The notes below the pieces were generated by a model, which had not been told where the DNA came from, did not search any database, and was given only the letters and a program-made list of their open reading frames with translations. The translations under genes were made by a program, and so were the position numbers. A DNA stretch of 64,000 bases. Origin: a virus. Its lineage: Duplodnaviria > Caudoviricetes. Every line of letters starts with the position of its first letter. The first letter of the stretch is position 1. The stretch covers positions 1-64,000 of IMG/VR virus record IMGVR_UViG_3300008111_000023. One strand, written 5' to 3'. This document shows, piece by piece, positions 1 through 10,265 of the stretch.

Positions 1-2563
1 CTCCTGCTTTAGATGAAATTTGTTTTTTACCGTAGCTAGTACCACCTACTTTATCCCATCCAACAGTTCCGCTGCCTCGACCACCCGATTCATATTTCTC
101 TGCTACAGCTCCTAAACCTGTACCAATCGCAGATGAAGATGCCCCACCACCTCCAACTGCCGATGCTCCAGGTTGATTAGTTGCTCCAGCAGTTTCACCT
201 TTTTGCCTACGTACCATACTATCAAACATTTTTTGAGGATTTGACAGATCAATACCAGGAACGCCACTAGGTCCAGCAGCGGCAGCTTTAGCTGCTGCTA
301 CTTCTGCTTCTTTAGCGGCAGCAACTTTGTTGGCTGCTTCAACTTCTTTTTCTTTTGCTCTTGCCGCTGCCCTACCAGCTACTGTTTCTTTTTCTTTAAC
401 TTCTGTTGCTTCAGTAGTTGCTGTTTTTGCATCTGTTTGAACTTCTTCTACACCTCTAGCTGTTCGATTTTCGGCACGTTTTGCATCTCTAACTAGTTCT
501 CGTTGTTTTAAATCTTTTCTTTCTGCAGCGATACTTTCACGACGAGCTTTTGCTTCATCCTTACTAATACCTCCAAATTTAGGTCCTAAAAATGCCAGTA
601 TAGATGTCATTAAATCTTTGAATCCCAATACAAATATATCGTATAGTTTATCGCCAACTGCTTCAAAAATAGTACCTAAGTCCCATCCCGAATTGTATAA
701 TGCTTTAAATGCTAGATATAGTGCTCCTACCACAAGAGCAATTTTTGCAAAAGGTCCCAACGCCATAAAGGATGCTACGCCCATTTTGAGTAAATTTCCT
801 GCGGCACTTAATGCATTTACTGCCATAGCTTTTAACGGTGCTAGACTCAGTGTTATACCTAATGTTTGTAATGATTGTTTTAAGGTAGCTAGTGCTATTA
901 TACCCTTGTAGGCCAAAAATGATCCAATCAATATGCCACCTGCAACTACTATGTTATCAAAGTTATCTACTACATAACGAAATGCTGGAACTACAACAAG
1001 TTCTACAACGTCAACTAGAGTTCGAAATGATTCCATCATTATGTCTAACAATCCGCTGTTAGCTAAAAACTTAGTAAACTCATTGCTTGTTTCTGCAATT
1101 TTATTTTTATATGCCTCCATGCTTGCTGGATCTAGCTGCTTGTCTTTTAATTCTTTTTCTTTGGCTGCACGTTCGGCTGCGGTCTTTTGTTGTTCGGCCT
1201 GGATCTGGCCCATAGTTTTTTCTCTGGCTGCGGCATCGGCTGCTCCTACAAAAAATCTTTTACTAGCTTCATCACCATGCAATGCCATATTTTCAGCAAC
1301 ACCCGATTTTACAAAAGCCTTTACTTCATTTTGATAGGCAGCATTAAGTTGTTGTGCTTGATTTGCTCCCATTTTACCTGTGGTACGAATCTGCTGATTC
1401 AACTGCATCATGTTTCTAGCACTTTGAGGCAAGAATGCCAATGCTTTTTTACCTGCTTCGGATGTAGCTGTACCTGTGGCAATAATTTCTTTCATGCCTT
1501 CTTGATGCTCTGCTGGTATAGAGTCCATTAAGGAATGCAAATTTTTCTGGCTTTCGGCATCTAACTTGCTAGCAATCAAACGGAACTGCGCATCTTTCAT
1601 CCTAGCATTACGCTGATCTTCTAATTCTTTTTTGCTTTGACCTGTTAACTTTGTCAGTGCATCAAGATCTTTTAAGTATGATCCGGTCTGAGCTATCAAT
1701 TGACTATTGCTCATTCCTTGCAATGCTCCGGTCTTGGCTAACTGGGCTGCATAAGATGCCATACCTTCGTTAATAGCTTCAGTTGAATAGCCTAGTCGAT
1801 TGAGATCTCCTGCTAATGGAGTTCCTTTAATTTGTTTACCTAGTGCTGCTAATCGTCTTGCACCTGCTTCACTATCACCACCTAACAATGCAAGGTCTTT
1901 ACCAGTCTTAGCAAGAATTCCACTAAACTGTTCAAATGTTAATCCAGCACCAGTTGCTGCATCCATCATCTCAGTCATGCTGCCGCCAAAGTTTGCACCG
2001 ACACTGGCAGATTTCTTAAATGCTTCATAGGTTTTTTCAGCAGCTCCTGCTACCGCACCAAACATAGAACCTAGTACGCCTCCTACAATTGGTATTTGAG
2101 TAAACACCTGAGCAGTTGAAGTTAGACTATCTCCAAGATTTGCCAAAGAACTCAACATGCCAGTCATACCAGTAGCCAAACTAGACACCGTTGATCCTAA
2201 CTGAGACAGTTTGCCCGCAACAAAATTCATTTGATCGAGCTGTTTTTGTTGGGCTTTTAATTTTGCCTCATCTGCCTCCTTGAGTTTTTTATCAATCTCA
2301 AGTTGTTTATTATCCGCTTCTAGCTTTTTTTTCTGAGCTTCAGTAAGTTTATCTTGCGCTGCCTGTTGCTTTTTGGCTGCTGCCGCAAGTTTCTTTAATT
2401 CTTTTTCAAGTTCTTGTTGTGATTTTGCCTGTGCAGCTTTATCTTTACCAGTATTATTGGCAATAACAGTCATGGCCGCAAGAAGTTGCTTTAGTGTAGC
2501 CTCCGTGGCTGCATTGTTTAATTGTATTGGCTGTCCGCCAAAATCACCAGTAACTTCTGCCAT
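1..2563 (-). CDS. Tape-measure-like tail protein with a C-terminal peptidoglycan hydrolase (VgrG3-C-like) domain; 3' end lies outside the window
   Basis: Not in the ORF track because it is open at the edge. ATG at 2563 (MAEVTGDFGGQPIQLNNAATEATLKQLLAAM...), then long Ala/Gly/Lys/Gln-rich helical sequence. The same frame at 130..2 reads AIGTGLGAVAEKYESGGRGSGTVGWDKVGGTSYGKKQISSKAG (YESG...GG.SYG..Q muramidase-like motif). Frame checked at several points, not codon by codon. Confidence 0.8.
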   Translation of the reverse strand, partial: MAEVTGDFGGQPIQLNNAATEATLKQLLAAMTVIANNTGKDKAAQAKSQQELEKELKKLAAAAKKQQAAQDKLTEAQKKKLEADNKQLEIDKKLKEADEAKLKAQQKQLDQMNFVAGKLSQLGSTVSSLATGMTGMLSSLANLGDSLTSTAQVFTQIPIVGGVLGSMFGAVAGAAEKTYEAFKKSASVGANFGGSMTEMMDAATGAGLTFEQFSGILAKTGKDLALLGGDSEAGARRLAALGKQIKGTPLAGDLNRLGYSTEAINEGMASYAAQLAKTGALQGMSNSQLIAQTGSYLKDLDALTKLTGQSKKELEDQRNARMKDAQFRLIASKLDAESQKNLHSLMDSIPAEHQEGMKEIIATGTATSEAGKKALAFLPQSARNMMQLNQQIRTTGKMGANQAQQLNAAYQNEVKAFVKSGVAENMALHGDEASKRFFVGAADAAAREKTMGQIQAEQQKTAAERAAKEKELKDKQLDPASMEAYKNKIAETSNEFTKFLANSGLLDIMMESFRTLVDVVELVVVPAFRYVVDNFDNIVVAGGILIGSFLAYKGIIALATLKQSLQTLGITLSLAPLKAMAVNALSAAGNLLKMGVASFMALGPFAKIALVVGALYLAFKALYNSGWDLGTIFEAVGDKLYDIFVLGFKDLMTSILAFLGPKFGGISKDEAKARRESIAAERKDLKQRELVRDAKRAENRTARGVEEVQTDAKTATTEATEVKEKETVAGRAAARAKEKEVEAANKVAAAKEAEVAAAKAAAAGPSGVPGIDLSNPQKMFDSMVRRQKGETAGATNQPGASAVGGGGASSSAIGTGLGAVAEKYESGGRGSGTVGWDKVGGTSYGKKQISSKAG

Positions 2564-2589
2564 TTAGTTTAGACCTTGAAAACTGCGCA

Positions 2590-2597
2590 TATAAATA
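2590..2597 (+). promoter_or_regulatory. T4-type late promoter TATAAATA for the gp26-like gene
   Basis: Exact T4 gp55 consensus 33 nt before the ATG at 2631, which has a GGAG RBS. Confidence 0.75.
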
Positions 2598-2612
2598 TAC
2601 GACTAGATAAAG

Positions 2613-2619
2613 TATTTAT
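2613..2619 (-). promoter_or_regulatory. Late promoter ATAAATA for the tape-measure-like gene
   Basis: Plus-strand tatttat about 50 nt upstream of the ATG at 2563. The same motif precedes other structural genes. Confidence 0.55.
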
Positions 2620-2630
2620 CGGAGATAAAA

Positions 2631-3742: not shown

Positions 3743-5011
3743 TTAACGCTTTCTAAACAAACTGAAACTTTCTGAAACTTTCTCTCTAACTTTAGTTGGC
3801 TTTGAAGTTCCCATAATATTTCTACGGTCAGCATCAATCGATTCTTGAGCAGCTGGTGCTGCTGCCTTTGCTTTCATTCCTTTTCTAATTTTACCTAATG
3901 TATTCGAACCGTATTCTGCTTGTTTACGAACAGCATTAAGTGCTTGTCCAGGTAATGGTTTACCGGTTTCTTTGTCAAATGTTGGCTCACCAATATTGGT
4001 CGCACGTTTGAGTCCTACAGTGGCTACAGGATTTGCAATAACTTTTTCACCGCTTGGTGAAGTTGTGGTTGCTCCAGGTTCAGCAGCTGGTTTAGGATTT
4101 GGTTTACCAGTTTTAGTATCGAATCCGTATGGTGCTTCTGCTTTGGCAGCTTCGCGATTCTTTTTCATCTGTGCAGGGCTTGCTACACCAGTTTGTGTGT
4201 TGTAGTTTGGTTCATCAGCTGCTGGTGCTGCTGGCTCAGTTGTTGCTGCTGGTGCAGGTTGAGTCGGTGCTGAAGCAGCAGGCGCAGCATTTGGATTACC
4301 TGGTTTAGCTTTGTTAGTTTTGCTAGTAGGAGTATTGGCCATTGTATTAGGCTTTGCAGATGCTCCTGCTTTTGCCAATTGTCCTGCCATGTTAGCCATT
4401 GCACCACTATCAGCTGGAGCTTCTGCGCCACCTGCTGCCGGTTTTGCAGCAGGAGCCGCTGGCTTAGCGGCAGGAGCAGCACCTACTTCTTTTTGTAATG
4501 TTGCTAAAATTCTTTGCTTGCCTTTCTTATCAAGTTTGTCAATATTTGCTTTAACTTGAGCATAGGCGGTACCACCTGCTGCGGGTGCAGGTTCACTTGC
4601 CGGAGCTCCGCTTGCTGCCGGTGCCGAAGCTGCTCCACCACTTGCTGCAGGTGTAGTATTACTTGCCGGTGCTGAAGTTGCAGGTGCCGAAGCTGCTCCA
4701 CTACCTGCTGCCGTTGTTGTCTTAGTTTTTGGAGCTGCTTTAGCTGTAGGAGTTGTTCCAGCTGTTGCTGTATTGTCTGCCGGAGCTGCTCCAGCGTCTG
4801 CTGCTGGTTCGTCGCCTGCGCCTGCTACTGTGGCTTTACCTGCCTGAAATCCTTTTTTAACAGCAGACCCTAGACCTGCTACGCCGCCTGCTACTGCGCC
4901 AACACCTTTAGCAACAGTACCTGCAACTTTACCGATGCCGGCTCCAATTTTATTTAGAATAGGACCTTCGTCTAATTGGTTGTTTTCTACTAATATTTCT
5001 GTAATTTTCAT
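3743..5011 (-). CDS. Ala/Pro-rich low-complexity protein, probable internal head/ejection protein
   Basis: 422 aa. N-terminus MKITEILVENNQLDEGP has (I/L)xE motifs like T4 gp21 cleavage sites. Shares a helix with the neighbouring gene product. Confidence 0.6.
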   Translation of the reverse strand: MKITEILVENNQLDEGPILNKIGAGIGKVAGTVAKGVGAVAGGVAGLGSAVKKGFQAGKATVAGAGDEPAADAGAAPADNTATAGTTPTAKAAPKTKTTTAAGSGAASAPATSAPASNTTPAASGGAASAPAASGAPASEPAPAAGGTAYAQVKANIDKLDKKGKQRILATLQKEVGAAPAAKPAAPAAKPAAGGAEAPADSGAMANMAGQLAKAGASAKPNTMANTPTSKTNKAKPGNPNAAPAASAPTQPAPAATTEPAAPAADEPNYNTQTGVASPAQMKKNREAAKAEAPYGFDTKTGKPNPKPAAEPGATTTSPSGEKVIANPVATVGLKRATNIGEPTFDKETGKPLPGQALNAVRKQAEYGSNTLGKIRKGMKAKAAAPAAQESIDADRRNIMGTSKPTKVREKVSESFSLFRKR

Positions 5012-5012
5012 T

Positions 5013-6494
5013 TTATGAAGTTCCTAATTGTTTTTGTAGATACGCAGTAAGGCGTCGTTTACTTTTTTTATCTAGTTTAGCTAAGTCTGCTTTAACTTGA
5101 GCGTATAATGTTGCACCAGCATCCTGAGTTCCTGCACTAGATATTTTTAAAGATTTATACACAGTGTCAATGGCAGTAGTGTCTACTCCTTGACTAGTTA
5201 AAAACTTTTTAAGTTCTTCACTGTCAGTAGGTGCACCAGCTTTTTGCCAAGCTGAATTTAATTTGTCAGCGGTGATCTTGGTAGTTAAATTGGTACCAAC
5301 TGTGCGAGCTTTATCCATTGCTTTGCCAGCAAATCCTTTGATGACATCCATTGGCCCTTCGTTGAGTTGCGATTCAGTAATGCGTTTGAACACTAGATAT
5401 ACTTGTCCTTCACTTAAAGGACGAACTTGTTGTTCTATAGATTCTTTTTTAGTTAGACTGCCCTTGACCCCCGCACCGGCAACCGCACCTTGTGCAGCAG
5501 CACCGAGATATTTGGTAGCTTCTTGAGCAGCCTGTGCTGCTTGACTGATCATAGTTCTACTAGCTTGATCAGAAGCTATTTGAGCTATGTATTGTTTATC
5601 ATTAAATGTATCAGCAATCATACCTTCAAGTGACTTCCAAGTGGCTGCACTTTGTTCATAGTCGCCTGCTTTCCAATATTGTCCCGCCTCGCTAAACAAT
5701 TTTTTAGCTGTGTTTATATCTTCTGGAGTTCCTACTAGACCTTTAATTTCAAAATTAGCCCATCGTGTACCCAATTCTCCGCCAACTTCATCAAAGATCT
5801 GATTCATGTTCAAACGAAGTGCATTAGGGAACATAGTGTCCTTAACAACCTGCGCACCGCCTTTGATCGCATCGCCTAGCAATTCAAAAGTTTTACCTGC
5901 AATAAAACCGTAGGCCGCAGTTTTAATACCTTTACCAATAGCTGTTGAAAGTTTTTCACCTTTGAGTAATTCTACAGCGCCTCGCAGTACTTGACCAGCA
6001 ATTGCGCCACCAACTGGGCCTCCTGCTAATGAAGCGATTGCAGTAAGCACACCTACAATCGCTGCTGTTTTTCCAGGATTTTCTTTAGCCCATATCCCCA
6101 TTTGAGAAATACCATCTAGTATTTTGCTGTCCGGAAACTTGGTATTAATTTTATTCTTTAATTGATCAAACTTTTGATCAAAGGCTTTAACTGGAGTTGT
6201 ATCCTGTAGCCATTTACCGATATTATCAACAATCTCGTTGGCTTTTTTACCAACATCGATCCCTTTGCCTAACATGGTTCTATTACCGCCTGCGTCAGTT
6301 GCAGATTTTTCTACGGCACCAAATATAGATTTGATTTGATCAGGACTAAGGCTAGCTTCAATTAAAGGCCGTAATTCATGATAAATGCCTTCAACAACAG
6401 TACGTTGTTCTTGATCAAGGCCATGACACGATTCTAATAGAATTTTATTAGAATTATTCATATGTTGTTCAAATAATATATTGCTGATTCTCAT
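5013..6494 (-). CDS. Hypothetical virion protein, probable internal head/ejection protein
   Basis: 493 aa with ILLES, LIEAS and QLNEGP motifs and a Gly/Ala hydrophobic segment. A late-promoter motif lies upstream. Confidence 0.6.
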   Translation of the reverse strand: MRISNILFEQHMNNSNKILLESCHGLDQEQRTVVEGIYHELRPLIEASLSPDQIKSIFGAVEKSATDAGGNRTMLGKGIDVGKKANEIVDNIGKWLQDTTPVKAFDQKFDQLKNKINTKFPDSKILDGISQMGIWAKENPGKTAAIVGVLTAIASLAGGPVGGAIAGQVLRGAVELLKGEKLSTAIGKGIKTAAYGFIAGKTFELLGDAIKGGAQVVKDTMFPNALRLNMNQIFDEVGGELGTRWANFEIKGLVGTPEDINTAKKLFSEAGQYWKAGDYEQSAATWKSLEGMIADTFNDKQYIAQIASDQASRTMISQAAQAAQEATKYLGAAAQGAVAGAGVKGSLTKKESIEQQVRPLSEGQVYLVFKRITESQLNEGPMDVIKGFAGKAMDKARTVGTNLTTKITADKLNSAWQKAGAPTDSEELKKFLTSQGVDTTAIDTVYKSLKISSAGTQDAGATLYAQVKADLAKLDKKSKRRLTAYLQKQLGTS

Positions 6495-6516
6495 AAGTAT
6501 TCAAAGATTAATATGT

Positions 6517-6523
6517 TATTTAT
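6517..6523 (-). promoter_or_regulatory. Late promoter ATAAATA
   Basis: Motif 22 nt upstream of the ATG at 6494. Confidence 0.55.
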
Positions 6524-6529
6524 TGTAAT

Positions 6530-6619
6530 TGTGAGCTGAAGCTCACATTCGTTTTCGCTTTCGCTCAACGAATTTTCTTTCTTCTAAACATTGTTGATTA
6601 TAATAATTGCGAAGCAATT
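6530..6619. other. Cluster of three short hairpins
   Basis: TGTGAGC-TGAA-GCTCACA (6530-6547); ATTCGTT...AACGAAT (6547-6573) enclosing GCGAAAGC on the minus strand; AATTGC-GAA-GCAATT (6605-6619). Confidence 0.6.
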
Positions 6620-6901
6620 TAAGTATTATGCAGATTGTTCAGTCATACTTAGCCCTTGCGGGCTAAGAAGCATTATGCGAGTTGCACAGTACATACAGCG
6701 TTATGGCAATTACAGAGGCGGTCATCCGGTACCTCGAGCCACGTCTTATTAATGACGGCGGATTGCTACACAAACGCAGTCTTGCATAACAACCGTGGGT
6801 TTTTCTCCCATCTTTTAGCCTTGATATAATACTTTCTTGTACAGTAAACCGGTTCTGTAGGCATATCCGATCGTGGTCCTGTTAAGGATACTACTGTACA
6901 A
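6620..6901 (-). ncRNA. Candidate large structured non-coding RNA, family not recognised
   Basis: Relatively GC-rich, with no ORF of its own and at least 8 nested helices. A GCAA tetraloop hairpin (6648-6667) and a G-U-rich stem (about 6759-6795) form well only on the minus strand. Confidence 0.65.
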
Positions 6902-7252
6902 TTTGTGATTAAATTGTTCTCTAGCTTCTATGTAAGAGCATTGCGCCTTGGATGTACAGTAAAATAATATGTCTCTACGGAAATTTTCTTTGCCTAATTG
7001 TTCCACATCCTTGCTTAATTCAACGTTTGACCCGTAATAATCACGCCAATCGCTGTCTATTTTAGAACGTATCTTCTTTTTCTTCTTGTTGCCGTTTTTG
7101 AGTTTTACTGTTTTGTAGCTAGTTTTTGAGAATTTGGCTAGTTTTTTGCCTATGTATTTCCTGCCAGTAATATTATTAGTAATAAGATAAACGAATCCTA
7201 CGCAAGTTTCGGGTAGCTCTTCTATTAACTGATTTTCATAATACCATGACAT
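6815..7252 (-). CDS. GIY-YIG endonuclease (Seg-like), C-terminus apparently truncated or replaced
   Basis: GFVYLITNNITGRKYIGKK, YYGS and the catalytic Glu in YIEAREQF. The expected downstream YN motif is absent, and the last 28 codons run through the structured element. Confidence 0.8.
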   Translation of the reverse strand: MSWYYENQLIEELPETCVGFVYLITNNITGRKYIGKKLAKFSKTSYKTVKLKNGNKKKKKIRSKIDSDWRDYYGSNVELSKDVEQLGKENFRRDILFYCTSKAQCSYIEAREQFNHKLYSSILNRTTIGYAYRTGLLYKKVLYQG

Positions 7253-7483
7253 TCACTTAGTTATTGTCTTGGGCCTTCCTATCATGCCTTTTCTGGATCT
7301 TTTGCGTTCTTCACGCTTTGCCTGTATTTCTACCCTGCGGGTGCTTGCTTCGTTGCGTATTTCACTTAGCCAATATCGTGCCTTAATGCCTGCTTCGTCT
7401 GAGCCTTTATATTCAAATCGTTCCTGCCACTTAAAATATTCCTGAAAAGCAGCAATCATTTTGTCGTGGCTTTCTGTAGTCAA
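7253..7483 (-). CDS. Small basic protein, Hc1 / histone H1-like nucleoid protein
   Basis: KGSDEAGIKARYWLSEIR resembles the Hc1-family KG.KAAG.RAR..L.E pattern, with a basic tail. TTG start overlaps the gp46 stop. Confidence 0.5.
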   Translation of the reverse strand: MTTESHDKMIAAFQEYFKWQERFEYKGSDEAGIKARYWLSEIRNEASTRRVEIQAKREERKRSRKGMIGRPKTITK

Positions 7484-9258
7484 TCAACAATCTCCACATC
7501 TGTTGAATAACTAGTAAATCCGTTTTCTTTGATCACCTTAAGAACATGATTAACACGGCTGGTTAAATCGTCTCTATGTGAAATCAAGAACACATTTTTG
7601 TTGCGTTCACGAGTCATCTTCTTAAGAACAGCAATACTACTTTCAACACCACTTGCATCCATACCGCTGTCTACTAGTTCGTCAATGAATAGTAGGTTAA
7701 TAGCTTGATATAGGTTTTCCCATACATCGCGGAATGCCCATGACATCGATAATATCAATCGATTGCGTTCACCGCGTGACAGATTGTCAAAGTCTAAGTC
7801 TTGACCTAACTGGGTAATAATAACAGTAAGGTCGTTCTGAAATTCAACTGTATGTGGAAGTCCAATGCGATCGAGATAATAGGTCAATCTTTGATTCAAA
7901 TAGGCTAAGTTTTGATCAATGATACGCTTGCGAATAAACGAATCTTTATTAGTCAACAGTTTATGTAAAAATTCTTGGTGTTCTTTAATCCTAACCAATG
8001 TGTTTACATTATCAAAATTAATTTCTTGTACCGCTGTGTTGCGTAATTCGTCAATCTGTTCAATGTAGGGATTATTTTCAGCGACCTTTACTTCTAGATC
8101 ACGTTCTAATCCGCTAAGAGTATTTTTATGATTTAGTGCTTGCTCTAAATTGTCGTAAATTACACTTGGACACGCACCTAGTTCACCAATTAAACTAATC
8201 GCCTCGTTGAGTTCGCTTAGTTCTTCGCTGTGAGTTTTTAAATGTCCTTGACTTTCTTCAACCTGTTTAACTTTGGCAGTCATCATCTCGTCGTGTTTGA
8301 CATCGTGAATGTCTTGACCACAACTATGACATTTATGATCTGCTAGAGTTGTTAACTCTCGCTCTAACTTGTCTAGATTTTTTTGCTCTCGTTCTAGAGT
8401 ACTAGTTTGTTTAGCAATCAAAGCAGTTAGACTATCTCGTTCTTTTTTGCTTTTTGTCCATTCAATTAACGATCGTTGATTGGCAATTTCTTCGTCGATG
8501 TTAATATCTAATAGTTTTTCTATTGCTTTGGTTAAATTGGCAAGAGCTGTTTCGTGTTGTTCTTCCCATAACCGTTGTTTGCGTTCTAACGATTCAATAC
8601 TCTGTTGAATTCGATCATTAGACACTTTAATTGTTTCAATTTTTGTATTTTCTGTAGCAATAGAGTCTTTGCTATTTTTAATTTGTTCTTTTAATGCTTC
8701 GGCTTTTTCACTTAATTGTGTAATACCTAACAACTGTTCGATAATAGCACGTTGGTCAGCTGCCTTCATTGACAAGAAAGGTTCAGTGTAGGTATTCAAA
8801 GCCACAAGATGTTTAAACATATCGTGAGTCATACCAAAAACTTCTTCAATAGCCTTTTGTGTTTCTCTACTATCGCCTTGAGCTTCATCAGTTTCTAATG
8901 AAGATTGTTCGTGTCCGTTAACACTAAACTTTAGGACATTAGGTTTACGACCTCTCTCAATGTGATAATCAACACCGTCTTTTTCAAAACTAACTGTACA
9001 TAACATACCCTTGTTGTTAATTTTGTTAACAAGGTTATCTTTTTTAATATTAGTTAGAGCATTGCCGTAGATAGCATAGCTGAGACCATTGATGATTGTA
9101 GTTTTACCAGTACCATTACGAGCACCGCTGTCGTCGCCACCTAGATCTAGATTTTCACCTAGTACAAGGGTTAACTGGCCTTTGTCAAATGTAATAGCCT
9201 GCGTTTGAGCTCCAACGCTCATAAAATTTCTAACGGTTAAATCTTTAATCTTTATCAT
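7480..9258 (-). CDS. gp46: Recombination endonuclease ATPase subunit (gp46 / SbcC / Rad50)
   Basis: Walker A NGTGKTT, coiled coils with zinc hook CHSC, signature LSRGE, Walker B LFIDE, H-loop ISH. Confidence 0.95.
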   Translation of the reverse strand: MIKIKDLTVRNFMSVGAQTQAITFDKGQLTLVLGENLDLGGDDSGARNGTGKTTIINGLSYAIYGNALTNIKKDNLVNKINNKGMLCTVSFEKDGVDYHIERGRKPNVLKFSVNGHEQSSLETDEAQGDSRETQKAIEEVFGMTHDMFKHLVALNTYTEPFLSMKAADQRAIIEQLLGITQLSEKAEALKEQIKNSKDSIATENTKIETIKVSNDRIQQSIESLERKQRLWEEQHETALANLTKAIEKLLDINIDEEIANQRSLIEWTKSKKERDSLTALIAKQTSTLEREQKNLDKLERELTTLADHKCHSCGQDIHDVKHDEMMTAKVKQVEESQGHLKTHSEELSELNEAISLIGELGACPSVIYDNLEQALNHKNTLSGLERDLEVKVAENNPYIEQIDELRNTAVQEINFDNVNTLVRIKEHQEFLHKLLTNKDSFIRKRIIDQNLAYLNQRLTYYLDRIGLPHTVEFQNDLTVIITQLGQDLDFDNLSRGERNRLILSMSWAFRDVWENLYQAINLLFIDELVDSGMDASGVESSIAVLKKMTRERNKNVFLISHRDDLTSRVNHVLKVIKENGFTSYSTDVEIVD

Positions 9259-10265
9259 AGGTTATTATAAATGTCTAATAGAAGAGCTTTGTCAAATGCA
9301 TCGCTGTCGATGGCATTGATTTGATTCATAACAATAGTGTCAACACTTTCAAAATTGATATCAATTGGAGTAGATTGTGCATCTACTTCTACCTTTTCTG
9401 GTATTAACATAAGTTCTCGAAGATTGTATTGAGGAACAAATGTTTCTTTAATAAAATTAGCTTCTTCAAAACTAATTGGCAAATCGATTGTGACGCGGCA
9501 ATGCATTTTTTCTTTCAGCAGGTCGTCGGGTTTGTCAATGATCTGACTCAATTTAAATGTTCTGTATACAGGTTGCCCTGGCCATGTTTTAAACTCCGGC
9601 GTACCTCCCCACTCTAACATCATCATACCTCGATCATCATCGCCTGCATCTGCATAATTGTGCGGAAACGCATTGCCAATATAATGTATGTTTCTATTGT
9701 GTTGACGCTTGTGAAAGTGACCAGTAAACACATATTCTTGGTTAACAAAATGGCTACTTTGTACTTGTCCGTGATCCGGCATTTGCACCATAGCATTCAT
9801 GTAAAAGCTGGGCAATTCTAAATGTCCAAACAAATACTTGCTTTTGATATTGGGAATGTTTTTCCACTCGTCAGCTACCAACCAAGGCATAATAGTGACA
9901 TCGCCTTCTGTCAACGTTTCCTTAATAGGAACTACATTTGGAAACAGTCGCATAAATTCAACAGAGTTAATCTCACGCTTGTCCTTGTAGAACAAGTCGT
10001 GATTGCCTAGAATAAAATAGACTTTTTCAAACGACTGACTTAGTTTTTCTAAGTTGGACACAGTATAGTTCATAGTACTAACATCGGTAGTACTACGATT
10101 ATGATGCCAATCGCCTAGAAAGATTGCAGTTTCACAACCTTCTTTTTTAGCAGTCTCACAGAACCAAGAAACAAAATCTTCACAATCTTGATTATGTGTA
10201 CGACTACCAGACTTTAGACCAAAATGAATATCGGTAAAACAGGCTACTTTTTTAAATAGTGACAT
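9255..10265 (-). CDS. gp47: Recombination endonuclease nuclease subunit (gp47 / SbcD / Mre11)
   Basis: Metallophosphoesterase motifs DIHFG, LGD, GNHD, GHFH; overlaps gp46. Confidence 0.95.
   Translation of the reverse strand: MSLFKKVACFTDIHFGLKSGSRTHNQDCEDFVSWFCETAKKEGCETAIFLGDWHHNRSTTDVSTMNYTVSNLEKLSQSFEKVYFILGNHDLFYKDKREINSVEFMRLFPNVVPIKETLTEGDVTIMPWLVADEWKNIPNIKSKYLFGHLELPSFYMNAMVQMPDHGQVQSSHFVNQEYVFTGHFHKRQHNRNIHYIGNAFPHNYADAGDDDRGMMMLEWGGTPEFKTWPGQPVYRTFKLSQIIDKPDDLLKEKMHCRVTIDLPISFEEANFIKETFVPQYNLRELMLIPEKVEVDAQSTPIDINFESVDTIVMNQINAIDSDAFDKALLLDIYNNL

What the first reader, a model, noticed from the sequence alone, without database searches (positions are those of the whole stretch)
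6620..7252. Large multi-helix non-coding RNA candidate directly downstream of a GIY-YIG nuclease: possible nuclease-RNA system
Seen on the minus strand, 5' to 3': a 10-bp helix UUGUACAGUA/UACUGUACAA (6901-6892 / 6846-6837) enclosing UCCU-UAAC-AGGA and GAUCGG/CCGGUU; UGGG-AGAAAAA-CCCA; a long stem with several G-U pairs (about 6795-6759); CGUC/GACG; a nested GUGGC[GAGG[CGG-AUGA-CCG]CCUC]GCCAU domain; and CUUAGCCC-GCAA-GGGCUAAG flanked by a near-repeat GCAUAAU(G/A)CUU. Potential pseudoknots are loop GCCU with AGGC, and GCGUU with AACGC. The G-U pairs and GNRA loop favour the same strand as the nuclease gene, at the end of the gp47-gp46-Hc1-GIY-YIG transcript. With the adjoining hairpins it fills the largest intergenic gap in an otherwise gene-dense window. 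Known: HEARO/omega RNAs pair with IscB nucleases, and large phage ncRNAs such as GOLLD and ROOL exist. I do not recognise this one as a tRNA, tmRNA, RNase P or intron. Inference: it could be a scaffold or guide RNA for the small GIY-YIG protein, whose Lys-rich insert (KTVKLKNGNKKKKKIRSK) could bind RNA, or an independent ribozyme or ornate RNA.
Basis: partly seen in the sequence, partly recalled or inferred. Interest (0 to 1): 0.85.

Follow-up and report, generated by a model that had tools for sequence, protein, structure and literature searches.

The report
Truncated copy of large phage RNA
The flagged stretch is a real, strongly structured non-coding RNA found in many freshwater T4-like phages and already partly catalogued as an orphan RNA family, but this copy has lost its front end and nothing indicates that it guides the neighbouring nuclease.

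Summary
The structured RNA is real. About 300 nt of it (6901-6531, minus strand) matches a roughly 450-nt non-coding RNA present in more than 180 related phage contigs.

- **Known part:** the 5' 141 nt of that RNA is Rfam RF01718 (Polynucleobacter-1, function unknown). The 3' ~300 nt, with two covariation-supported pseudoknots, appears undescribed.
- **This copy is truncated:** a 183-bp deletion at 6902|6901 removed RF01718 positions 1-82 and the last ~25 codons of the SegE-type GIY-YIG gene. The last 28 codons of the ORF at 6815-7252 are therefore RNA sequence.
- **Covariation:** on 44 sequences, 88.5% of cells pair against 38-46% for slid controls, and 73 of 97 pairs show compensatory changes.
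- **Unexpected feature:** two 7-nt boxes about 50 nt apart are identical in 84 of 84 representatives, through 36 concerted changes. No complementary partner was found.
- **Nuclease link:** GIY-YIG adjoins the RNA in 133 of 139 loci. Three loci carry a PD-(D/E)XK nuclease instead, three have a gene inserted between, and one full copy has no adjacent nuclease. No end of the RNA is variable, as a guide would require.

Best reading: an independent phage ncRNA at the 3' end of the gp47-gp46 operon. Its function is unknown.

The parts
7253..7483 (-).
   Evidence: ORF list. No Pfam or PHROG match. tblastn finds it in most related loci at 35-100% identity.
6902..7252 (-). Native part (codons 1-117) of the SegE-type GIY-YIG nuclease gene
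   Evidence: Pfam PF19835, E 3.5e-28, but only profile positions 1-110 of 123. The intact relative L003 covers 1-123 of 123. Alignment A1.
6901..6902 (-). Junction of a 183-bp deletion relative to near-identical relatives
   Evidence: Alignment A1: 183 columns are present in L003, L006 and L009 and absent from the window. No listed contig of 4 public runs bridges this point. A loose end at 6901 in run X1 reads into the undeleted form.
6815..6901 (-). Last 28 codons plus stop of the annotated ORF. These are RNA sequence read through, not native protein.
   Evidence: Relatives end the ORF at 141-147 aa with a different, conserved C-terminus. This stretch aligns to the RNA in all relatives.
6837..6901 (-). 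Three-way element P4 (6901-6892/6846-6837), P5 (6888-6885/6880-6877) and P6 (6872-6867/6852-6847). This is the surviving 3' part of Rfam RF01718.
   Evidence: cmscan hit 6898-6840, 28.6 bits (cut-off 37), model positions 83-138 of 141, E 4e-4. Helices 4-6 are 99.2, 89.9 and 98.9% paired. Coordinates.
6797..6809 (-). Hairpin P8 (GGG / CCC)
   Evidence: Helix 8: 3 of 3 pairs with compensatory changes. Coordinates.
6761..6794 (-). Long stem P9 (6794-6782 / 6773-6761). Its 8-nt loop forms pseudoknot PK1.
   Evidence: Helix 9: 12 of 12 pairs with compensatory changes, 89.4% paired.
6696..6779 (-).
   Evidence: Helix 10: 98.1% paired, 5 of 6 pairs compensatory. It was the top hit of an unbiased helix scan. 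In L128 the paired letters are entirely different yet still complementary.
6721..6756 (-). Pseudoknot PK2: GUCAU 6756-6752 with AUGAC 6725-6721
   Evidence: Helix 11: 98.2% paired, 3 of 5 pairs compensatory. Pair 269-312 is C-G in 23 sequences and U-A in 21.
6703..6742 (-). Nested helices P10 (6742-6738/6707-6703) and P11 (6735-6732/6718-6715), around an almost invariant 17-nt loop segment
   Evidence: Helices 12 and 13. The loop segment served as the search pattern that found 119 contigs.
6670..6683 (-). Box R1 (14-nt repeat; 7-nt core GCAUAAU at 6678-6672)
6648..6667 (-). Hairpin P12 with GCAA loop, between the two boxes
   Evidence: Helix 14. 80% paired with 3 compensatory pairs.
6623..6636 (-). 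Box R2 (14-nt repeat; core GCAUAAU at 6631-6625). The core is always identical to that of R1.
   Evidence: 84 of 84 representatives have identical cores. There are 18 + 4 + 7 + 7 parsimony changes, all shared by both boxes.
6531..6619 (-). 3' hairpins P13 (6619-6614/6610-6605), P14 (6572-6567/6553-6548) and P15 (6546-6541/6536-6531). This is the likely 3' end of the RNA.
   Evidence: Helices 16-19; P15 has 7 of 8 pairs compensatory. No minus-strand terminator match in the simple scan.
5013..6494 (-). Downstream 493-aa gene with an internal-protein-like N-terminus. It is hypervariable among relatives.
   Evidence: No Pfam or PHROG match.

Best explanation
Window 6901-6531 (minus strand) is the 3' three quarters of a ~450-nt non-coding RNA. 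Freshwater T4-like phages carry it once per genome, directly after the stop codon of the last gene of the gp47-gp46-orf76-nuclease operon.

**Shown**
- Its first 141 nt is Rfam RF01718 (Polynucleobacter-1).
- The rest is an undescribed extension with two pseudoknots, a nearly invariant loop, and two identical 7-nt boxes flanking a hairpin.
- In this window a 183-bp deletion has removed the RNA's first three hairpins together with the C-terminus of the GIY-YIG nuclease. The ORF now runs on into RNA sequence.

**Inferred**
- The RNA is made as the 3' end of the early operon transcript and ends at the P14/P15 hairpins.
- It works as a self-folding RNA in its own right.
- Its two single-stranded boxes act as twin docking sites for one partner that reads their sequence in trans. 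That partner could be a nucleic acid, or a protein that reads base identity.
- The nuclease gene upstream fills a positional 'nuclease slot' after gp46 and does not need the RNA.
For: **Family and truncation**
- The window gives a partial RF01718 hit. Full hits of 72-114 bits occur in 20 of 20 relatives scanned, and there is one hit in each of 5 of 5 larger records, one of them 94% complete.
- The 183-bp deletion shows in alignment A1.

**Extension beyond the Rfam model**
- blastn and nhmmer similarity runs ~300 nt past the Rfam model in 146 of 160 loci and in 39 of 39 further loci.

**Structure**
- 88.5% of cells pair, against 75.0% in shuffles (0 of 500 as high) and 38-46% when partners are slid.
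- 73 of 97 pairs carry compensatory changes, against 32-39 slid.
- The covariation score is 0.402, against 0.07-0.10 slid.

**Non-coding**
- There are about 10.6 stops per frame on the RNA strand. Gap runs are mostly not multiples of 3.
- Antisense ORFs are inconsistent in place and length.

**Position**
- The RNA starts within ~10-25 nt of the upstream stop codon.
- In 43 of 122 loci no same-strand ORF of 100 aa or more starts within 400 nt downstream.

**Twin boxes**
- The cores are identical in 84 of 84 representatives through 36 concerted parsimony changes.
- The rule also holds in the divergent L128.

**Independence from GIY-YIG**
- A PD-(D/E)XK nuclease (PF24608) replaces it in L094, L106 and L140.
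- Genes are inserted between nuclease and RNA in L095, L102 and L148.
- L128 has a full copy with an amidoligase-like gene upstream.
Against: - No transcript ends are known. The RNA-library data are contigs only, and the depth peak over 6584-6727 is also present in the DNA run. It therefore reflects conservation, not expression.
- No partner for the boxes was found:
  - in cis (own complement in 5 of 84, controls 2-9 of 84);
  - in the flanking 5-7 kb;
  - in the window;
  - in four large records (only 1-mismatch hits, at control level).
- GIY-YIG adjacency in 133 of 139 loci is tighter than gp46-GIY adjacency. A functional tie is therefore not excluded.
- The GIY-YIG protein (typically 77-82% identical) and the RNA are both more conserved than gp46 (58-63%) in the same loci. 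This could mean they travel or are selected together.
- The deleted form seen in the window is not confirmed by any independent contig and could be an assembly artefact.
Confidence: 0.6

Rival explanations
1. **Nuclease-RNA system.** The RNA is a scaffold or guide that gives the small, domain-poor GIY-YIG nuclease its target specificity, perhaps through the twin boxes.
For: - Adjacency within 150 nt and in the same orientation holds in 133 of 139 loci.
- The nuclease is 141-152 aa in 163 of 164 ORFs, so it lacks the DNA-binding domain of Seg or I-Tev enzymes.
- It carries a Lys-rich beta-hairpin at residues 40-66, modelled at pLDDT 90.7.
- Nuclease and RNA are both more conserved than gp46.
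- The boxes vary freely but in concert, like an address.
Against: - The same RNA follows a PD-(D/E)XK nuclease in 3 loci. It is separated from GIY-YIG by another gene in 3 loci. It stands without a nuclease in L128.
- No GIY-YIG column tracks the box sequence.
- No terminal variable guide segment exists.
- No complement of the boxes was found in phage records.
Confidence: 0.08
2. **Cis-regulatory leader.** This is the label in the 2010 motif paper. On this view the RNA is a 5' UTR or riboswitch-like element controlling the downstream internal-protein-like genes.
For: - The table in PMC2864571 marks Polynucleobacter-1 as probably cis-regulatory (passage seen).
- In 79 of 122 loci a same-strand ORF of 100 aa or more starts within 400 nt downstream. 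Of these, 55 have an M[KR]x(1-3)[ED][ILVF] start.
- L128 also has such a gene downstream.
Against: - In 43 of 122 loci there is no such ORF and the next gene is convergent.
- The RNA abuts the upstream stop codon and is followed by two hairpins before the next gene.
- The downstream genes are hypervariable while the RNA is highly conserved.
Confidence: 0.12
3. **Homing target or landing pad.** The conserved RNA gene is the recognition target beside which free-standing nuclease genes of different families insert and spread. This would explain the linkage without any RNA-protein partnership.
For: - Two unrelated nuclease families occupy the same slot in same-strand loci (GIY-YIG and PDDEXK_15). 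An endonuclease VII-like gene lies next to the divergent copy in L193.
- GIY-YIG is more conserved than flanking core genes.
- Many contigs break within 0-160 nt after the nuclease stop codon.
Against: - The nuclease is nearly universal (133 of 139) rather than sporadic.
- It lacks a DNA-binding domain.
- No RNA-bearing locus with an empty slot was seen apart from L128.
- The PHROG labels of the alternatives are resolvase-like. That fits a housekeeping recombination nuclease after gp46/gp47.
Confidence: 0.12
4. **Strand-transfer template.** The two identical boxes are homology for a polymerase that copies the ~50-nt segment between them and jumps from one box to the other. The analogy (recalled) is with repeat-mediated template switching in reverse-transcribing or RNA-copying systems.
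For: - Strict identity, rather than complementarity, holds through 36 concerted changes.
- The fixed differences begin immediately outside the 7-nt core.
- No complementary partner was found anywhere searched.
Against: - No reverse transcriptase (PF00078) occurs in 0 of 5 records, including one 94% complete.
- Box spacing varies from 47 to 60 nt, and the segment has stops in all frames.
- There is no direct evidence of any copied product.
Confidence: 0.05
5. **Protein-coding region or pseudogene remnant** of a longer nuclease C-terminal domain.
For: The annotated ORF runs 87 nt into the region.
Against: - Relatives stop before the RNA at 141-147 aa.
- There are about 10.6 stops per frame, and gap runs are not multiples of 3.
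- No antisense ORF is consistent across sequences.
- Compensatory base-pair changes occur throughout.
Confidence: 0.01

Closest known systems
Polynucleobacter-1 RNA motif (Rfam RF01718; Weinberg et al. 2010, PMC2864571)
   Same: - The 5' 141 nt of the full RNA is this family. There are full-length hits of 72-114 bits in 20 of 20 relatives.
- The window keeps model positions 83-138.
- The habitat matches: freshwater and estuary in the paper's table, and freshwater or lake metagenome runs hold the window sequence.
   Different: - The Rfam model stops at 141 nt. The conserved, covarying RNA continues for ~300 nt more.
- It was labelled probably cis-regulatory and Burkholderiales. Every instance seen here is in T4-like phage contigs.
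- No hit occurred in 151 sampled genomes of one Burkholderiales-related family.
- The window copy itself fails the family cut-off because its 5' part is deleted.
GOLLD and ROOL large ornate RNAs of phages and prophages
   Same: All are large, heavily structured, phage-borne ncRNAs of unknown function, found by comparative genomics in lake or environmental data. This is recalled, apart from an abstract start seen in the listing for 10.1101/2024.12.08.627333.
   Different: - No Rfam hit to either family.
- This RNA is smaller (~450 nt).
- It has a fixed position after the gp46 operon rather than near tRNA clusters (the tRNA association is recalled).
HEARO / omega RNA of IscB and other OMEGA guide RNAs
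   Same: A structured RNA next to a small nuclease gene.
   Different: - The nuclease here is GIY-YIG, not RuvC/HNH.
- The RNA lies 3' of the gene.
- There is no variable terminal guide.
- The RNA persists with other nucleases or none.
- No Rfam HEARO hit.
Free-standing GIY-YIG homing endonucleases of T-even phages (Seg family)
   Same: The protein matches Pfam SegE_GIY-YIG (PF19835) end to end. It sits between conserved genes of a T4-like phage.
   Different: - It has only the catalytic domain, at 141-152 aa in 163 of 164 ORFs.
- It is nearly universal in the group rather than sporadic.
- There is no PDB sequence match and no Foldseek match at E <= 0.001.
Paired identical recognition boxes such as lambdoid nutL/nutR, or repeat-mediated template switching (recalled analogies)
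   Same: Two sites in one genome are kept identical to each other while differing between relatives.
   Different: - At least 11 core variants exist here, with 36 concerted changes among close relatives.
- No cognate protein or polymerase has been identified.

Membership tests
Rfam RF01718 Polynucleobacter-1 | Covariance-model score at or above the gathering cut-off (37 bits) | tested here: not met
   The window scores 28.6 bits, a partial match. Relatives score 71.9-114 bits in 20 of 20 loci and 64-113 bits in 5 of 5 records.
Rfam RF01718 Polynucleobacter-1 | Three 5' hairpins (model positions 1-82) | tested here: not met
   They are absent from the window and lie within the 183-bp deletion. 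They are present and covary in relatives (helices 1-3).
Rfam RF01718 Polynucleobacter-1 | 3' three-way element: outer helix enclosing two hairpins (model positions 83-138) | tested here: met
   Window 6898-6840 aligns to positions 83-138. Helices 4-6 are supported.
OMEGA / HEARO-type guide RNA with nuclease | Obligate pairing with one nuclease family | tested here: not met
   Of 139 loci, 133 have GIY-YIG adjacent, 3 have a PD-(D/E)XK nuclease and 3 have a gene in between. L128 has none.
OMEGA / HEARO-type guide RNA with nuclease | A variable guide segment at one end of a conserved scaffold | tested here: not met
   Both ends are conserved helices (P1, P15). The only freely varying addressed positions are the internal twin boxes.
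OMEGA / HEARO-type guide RNA with nuclease | RNA-dependent target cleavage | not testable with these tools
   Needs biochemistry.
Group I intron with internal GIY-YIG ORF | Match to group I intron covariance models | tested here: not met
   No hit at E <= 10 on window 6400-7350. No hit at E <= 1 on four intact loci.
Group I intron with internal GIY-YIG ORF | Interrupts a host gene (split exons) | tested here: not met
   The flanking ORFs are separate complete genes, and the downstream gene differs between loci.
Seg-type free-standing homing endonuclease | GIY-YIG catalytic domain | tested here: met
   PF19835 at E 1.1e-31 over 1-123 of 123 in L003. The window copy covers only 1-110 of 123.
Seg-type free-standing homing endonuclease | C-terminal DNA-binding domain (the lengths of Seg proteins are recalled, about 200 aa or more) | tested here: not met
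   141-152 aa in 163 of 164 ORFs. The domain spans residues 3-129 of 142.
Seg-type free-standing homing endonuclease | Sporadic presence among close relatives | tested here: not met
   Present next to the RNA in 133 of 139 loci.
GOLLD / ROOL | Match to the family's covariance model | tested here: not met
   No Rfam hits other than RF01718.

The most novel reading that the evidence does not exclude
The RNA may carry a sequence address. Two identical 7-nt boxes have been rewritten in concert at least 36 times among close relatives. That fits a partner read by base identity which itself varies, such as a host or rival-element nucleic acid. It also fits strand transfer by a polymerase between the boxes. 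Either case would be a new kind of phage RNA device whose signature is identity covariation. Standard tools that look for complementarity miss this signature.
Probability: 0.12. Interest if true: 0.85.

Novelty: new variant of a known kind. Interest (0 to 1): 0.55.

Why it matters
- **It redefines an orphan Rfam family.** Polynucleobacter-1 has been catalogued since 2010 as a 141-nt, possibly cis-regulatory motif of Burkholderiales. Here it turns out to be the front third of a ~450-nt pseudoknotted RNA carried once per genome by a large group of freshwater T4-like phages.
- **The data set is rich.** More than 180 instances and about 84 sequences below 95% identity make it a good candidate for structure determination and for function tests.
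- **The twin boxes are a rare, clean case of identity covariation rather than complementarity.** They point to a partner or mechanism not yet identified.
- **For the scan,** it shows that the nuclease-plus-RNA adjacency is positional. It also shows that this window's copy is a deletion variant or a misassembly.

Tried and rejected
- **Cultured phages.** blastn (distant mode) of window 6480-6920 against 50,697 phage records found no match.
- **Bacterial genomes.**
It gave 120 loci from unrelated taxa, and 0 of 120 carry the RNA by nhmmer. Bacterial members of RF01718 therefore could not be examined.
  - RF01718 was not found in 2 handles.
  - It was also not found in 151 sampled genomes of one family. 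This means not found in those searched, not absent.
- **Expression.**
  - Contigs of three RNA libraries from three studies cover 6593-6901. They also cover other genes.
  - The DNA run shows the same depth peak.
  - No contig among those listed bridges 6901/6902, and 288 pieces were not shown.
  - No conclusion on transcription or on the reality of the deletion can be drawn.
- **Partner of the boxes.** The following were searched, without result:
  - a wobble-tolerant complement in the window;
  - the same in 82 loci, giving 2 spurious hits;
  - the RNA plus 150-nt flanks;
  - four large records.
  - An apparent enrichment 1.4 kb upstream is a conserved Tyr-Tyr-Leu codon run in gp46 and does not covary.
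- **Other checks.**
  - Reverse transcriptase: none in 5 records.
  - Nuclease fold: no PDB sequence match and no Foldseek match at E <= 0.001 despite pLDDT 90.7.
  - Promoter and terminator scan: nothing above shuffles on the minus strand.
  - Coding on either strand: rejected.
- **Limits.**
  - My one search test of CGUC/GACG was mis-registered.
  - Supplements of PMC2864571, which may describe Polynucleobacter-1 contexts, were not available.
Full report
**What is at the coordinates.** On the minus strand the window encodes several genes in a row.
- A gp47-like phosphoesterase lies at 9255-10265.
- A gp46-like SMC/AAA protein lies at 7480-9258.
- A 76-aa basic ORF lies at 7253-7483.
- A 145-aa ORF at 6815-7252 matches Pfam SegE_GIY-YIG.
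- A 320-nt gap follows, before a 493-aa gene at 5013-6494.

The stretch 6495-6910 folds better than shuffled sequence (z = -4.23, 0 of 100 shuffles as good). Its GC content is 0.45 against 0.36 for the window. ARAGORN finds no tRNA or tmRNA. The gap is large but not the largest ORF-free stretch in the window.

**A known family, and a truncated copy.** Rfam at gathering thresholds finds nothing in the window. With E-value thresholds, 6898-6840 matches positions 83-138 of the 141-position model RF01718, Polynucleobacter-1, at 28.6 bits against a cut-off of 37.

I fetched 80 viral-contig loci through the GIY-YIG protein; 394 relatives were confirmed. All 20 of the 20 I scanned carry a full-length RF01718 hit of 72-114 bits just after the nuclease gene.

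Aligning the window with three relatives that are 95-98% identical in the flanks shows that the window lacks 183 bp. The missing piece holds three things:
- the last ~25 codons and stop of the nuclease gene;
- a short spacer;
- RF01718 positions 1-82.

Codons 118-145 of the window ORF are therefore RNA sequence read through. The Pfam match ends at profile position 110 of 123 in the window, whereas the intact L003 covers all 123.

None of the other loci with internal RNA copies shares this deletion. In four public runs, no listed contig bridges 6901/6902. One loose end in the best DNA holder reads from 6901 into the undeleted form. The deletion may be a real variant or a misassembly; I could not decide.

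**The RNA is much larger than the Rfam model.** Similarity continues about 300 nt past the end of RF01718, to within a few tens of nt of the next gene.

By nhmmer, 73 of the 80 listed and 39 of the 39 unlisted carry the RNA, and 7 are chance matches. In total 146 of 160 loci L001-L161 have it. Of these, 100 are unique near-full copies, and 84 are representatives below 95% identity. Each of five larger records has exactly one copy, including one that is 94% complete.

**Structure.** I derived helices from an unbiased scan and from mutual information on the 84 representatives. I then tested them on a separate MAFFT alignment of 44 sequences (A2).

For 97 pairs in 19 helices:

| Measure | Observed | Shuffled | Partners slid 1-3 columns |
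|---|---|---|---|
| Cells forming a standard pair | 88.5% | 75.0% (0 of 500 as high) | 38-46% |
| Pairs with compensatory changes | 73 of 97 | 49.8 | 32-39 |
| Covariation score | 0.402 | 0.168 | 0.07-0.10 |

Two pseudoknots are among the best-supported elements:
- The loop of the long stem pairs with a downstream segment, 6779-6774 with 6701-6696 in the window. It is 98.1% paired, with 5 of 6 pairs compensatory.
- GUCAU at 6756-6752 pairs with AUGAC at 6725-6721. It is 98.2% paired, and one pair splits into C-G in 23 sequences and U-A in 21.

My one search test of CGUC/GACG was mis-registered and is void.

Positions fixed as G-U on this strand support the nuclease strand. The RNA strand has about 10.6 stops per frame, and antisense ORFs are inconsistent.

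**Twin boxes.** Two 14-nt direct repeats flank hairpin P12, at 6683-6670 and 6636-6623 in the window. Their 7-nt cores are identical to each other in 84 of 84 representatives, while the core differs between phages. There are ten variants among the representatives and an eleventh in L128.

I built a tree from the rest of the RNA. On it, the four variable core columns change 18, 4, 7 and 7 times by parsimony, and every change is shared by both boxes. Just outside the core, the two repeats differ at four fixed positions, all of them transitions.

Complementarity does not explain the pattern:
- The core's own complement is no more frequent in the RNA and its flanks than control cores (5 of 84 against 2-9 of 84).
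- It is absent from the loci and from the window.
- It is absent from four large records beyond control level.
- The one apparent enrichment is a Tyr-Tyr-Leu codon run in gp46 that does not covary.
- No GIY-YIG alignment column tracks the core.
- None of 5 records encodes a reverse transcriptase.

This feature remains unexplained.

**Linkage and context.** I examined 139 distinct loci that have at least 600 nt upstream.

| Gene upstream of the RNA | Loci (of 139) |
|---|---|
| GIY-YIG within 150 nt | 133 (131 counted, plus L006 and L009 missed through an alignment overshoot) |
| GIY-YIG with another gene inserted before the RNA | 3 |
| PD-(D/E)XK nuclease (PF24608) in the same slot | 3 |

- The PD-(D/E)XK finding rests.
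- L128 holds a full copy behind an amidoligase-like gene.
- A divergent partial copy in L193 lies near an endonuclease VII-like gene.

Downstream, 79 of 122 loci have a same-strand gene within 400 nt. Most of these start like T4 internal-protein targeting sequences; the motif itself is recalled. Passages seen in PMC3012670 say that internal proteins are highly diverse, with only the targeting sequence conserved. The other 43 loci have none, and a convergent baseplate-hub gene follows.

The RNA therefore sits at the 3' end of the early recombination operon, abutting the stop codon. It is not a dedicated leader.

**The nuclease.**
- It is 141-152 aa in 163 of 164 ORFs, so it is the catalytic domain only.
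- It is typically 77-82% identical to the window copy where gp46 is 58-63%.
- The AlphaFold model (pLDDT 90.7) shows a long Lys-rich beta-hairpin at residues 40-66.
- It has no PDB match by sequence or by Foldseek at E <= 0.001.
- The alternative occupants carry resolvase-type PHROG labels.

I read the slot as a recombination or structure-specific nuclease position after gp46/gp47. That reading is inference.

**Expression.** Three RNA-library runs from three studies have contigs over 6593-6901. They also cover other phage genes, and the DNA run shows the same depth peak. This shows presence in RNA libraries, not transcription.

**Mechanism and rivals.**
- *Shown:* a conserved, pseudoknotted, non-coding RNA present once per genome, in a fixed 3'-of-operon position, independent of which nuclease precedes it.
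- *Inferred (about 0.6 overall, less for the details):* it is released or stabilised from the operon transcript, and it acts on its own through its invariant loops and its twin boxes.

Rival readings:
- nuclease guide or scaffold (0.08);
- leader of the downstream genes (0.12);
- conserved landing pad for nuclease genes (0.12);
- strand-transfer template (0.05);
- coding (0.01).

**Novelty.** In the paper library, 'Polynucleobacter-1' occurs in one paper, in a table only. A search for GIY-YIG together with noncoding RNA, phage and covariation listed nothing about such a pair among the 12 of 77 papers shown. The supplements of the 2010 paper were not available. The 3' extension, the two pseudoknots and the identity-covarying boxes therefore appear to be undescribed. 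I file the finding as a new variant of a known kind, and this window's copy as a truncated member.

Noticed in passing
window 1-2630: Several ORF-free stretches as large as or larger than the finding's gap: 268-617, 1532-1799 and 2031-2372 at an ORF threshold of 50 aa. Rfam gathering finds nothing there.
   Followed up: no
window 5013-6494 and 3743-5011 (minus strand): Two genes without Pfam or PHROG matches begin MRISNILFEQ and MKITEILVEN. These resemble T4 internal-protein capsid-targeting sequences (motif recalled). The genes are hypervariable between related loci, and the second is Ala/Pro-rich.
   Followed up: partly
L001, L004, L005, L012, L037, L066, L071, L076 (contig ends): Many IMG/VR contigs end within 0-160 nt after the GIY-YIG stop codon, inside or at the start of the RNA. 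This suggests population heterogeneity or assembly trouble at this spot.
   Followed up: no
L003:3001-3426 and relatives (window 6902-7252): The GIY-YIG model (pLDDT 90.7) has a long Lys-rich beta-hairpin at residues 40-66 and no Foldseek PDB match at E <= 0.001. The PHROG family that matches it end to end (phrog_447) is labelled 'NAD synthetase', probably a mislabel.
   Followed up: partly
window 6530-6547 (plus strand): Read on the plus strand, hairpin P15 is followed by a T-rich run and scores as terminator-like. In relatives with a convergent gene it could act as a two-way terminator.
   Followed up: no
window 6672-6678 and 6625-6631, and all relatives: Every variant of the twin-box core reads as a sense codon followed by UAA or UGA. 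No conserved start codon lies upstream and the region is otherwise full of stops.
   Followed up: partly
L193:5065-5366 (minus strand): A distant partial homologue of the RNA (profile positions 80-281) lies in a different phage context, next to an endonuclease VII-like gene and a PhoH-like gene. It lacks the twin-box module.
   Followed up: partly
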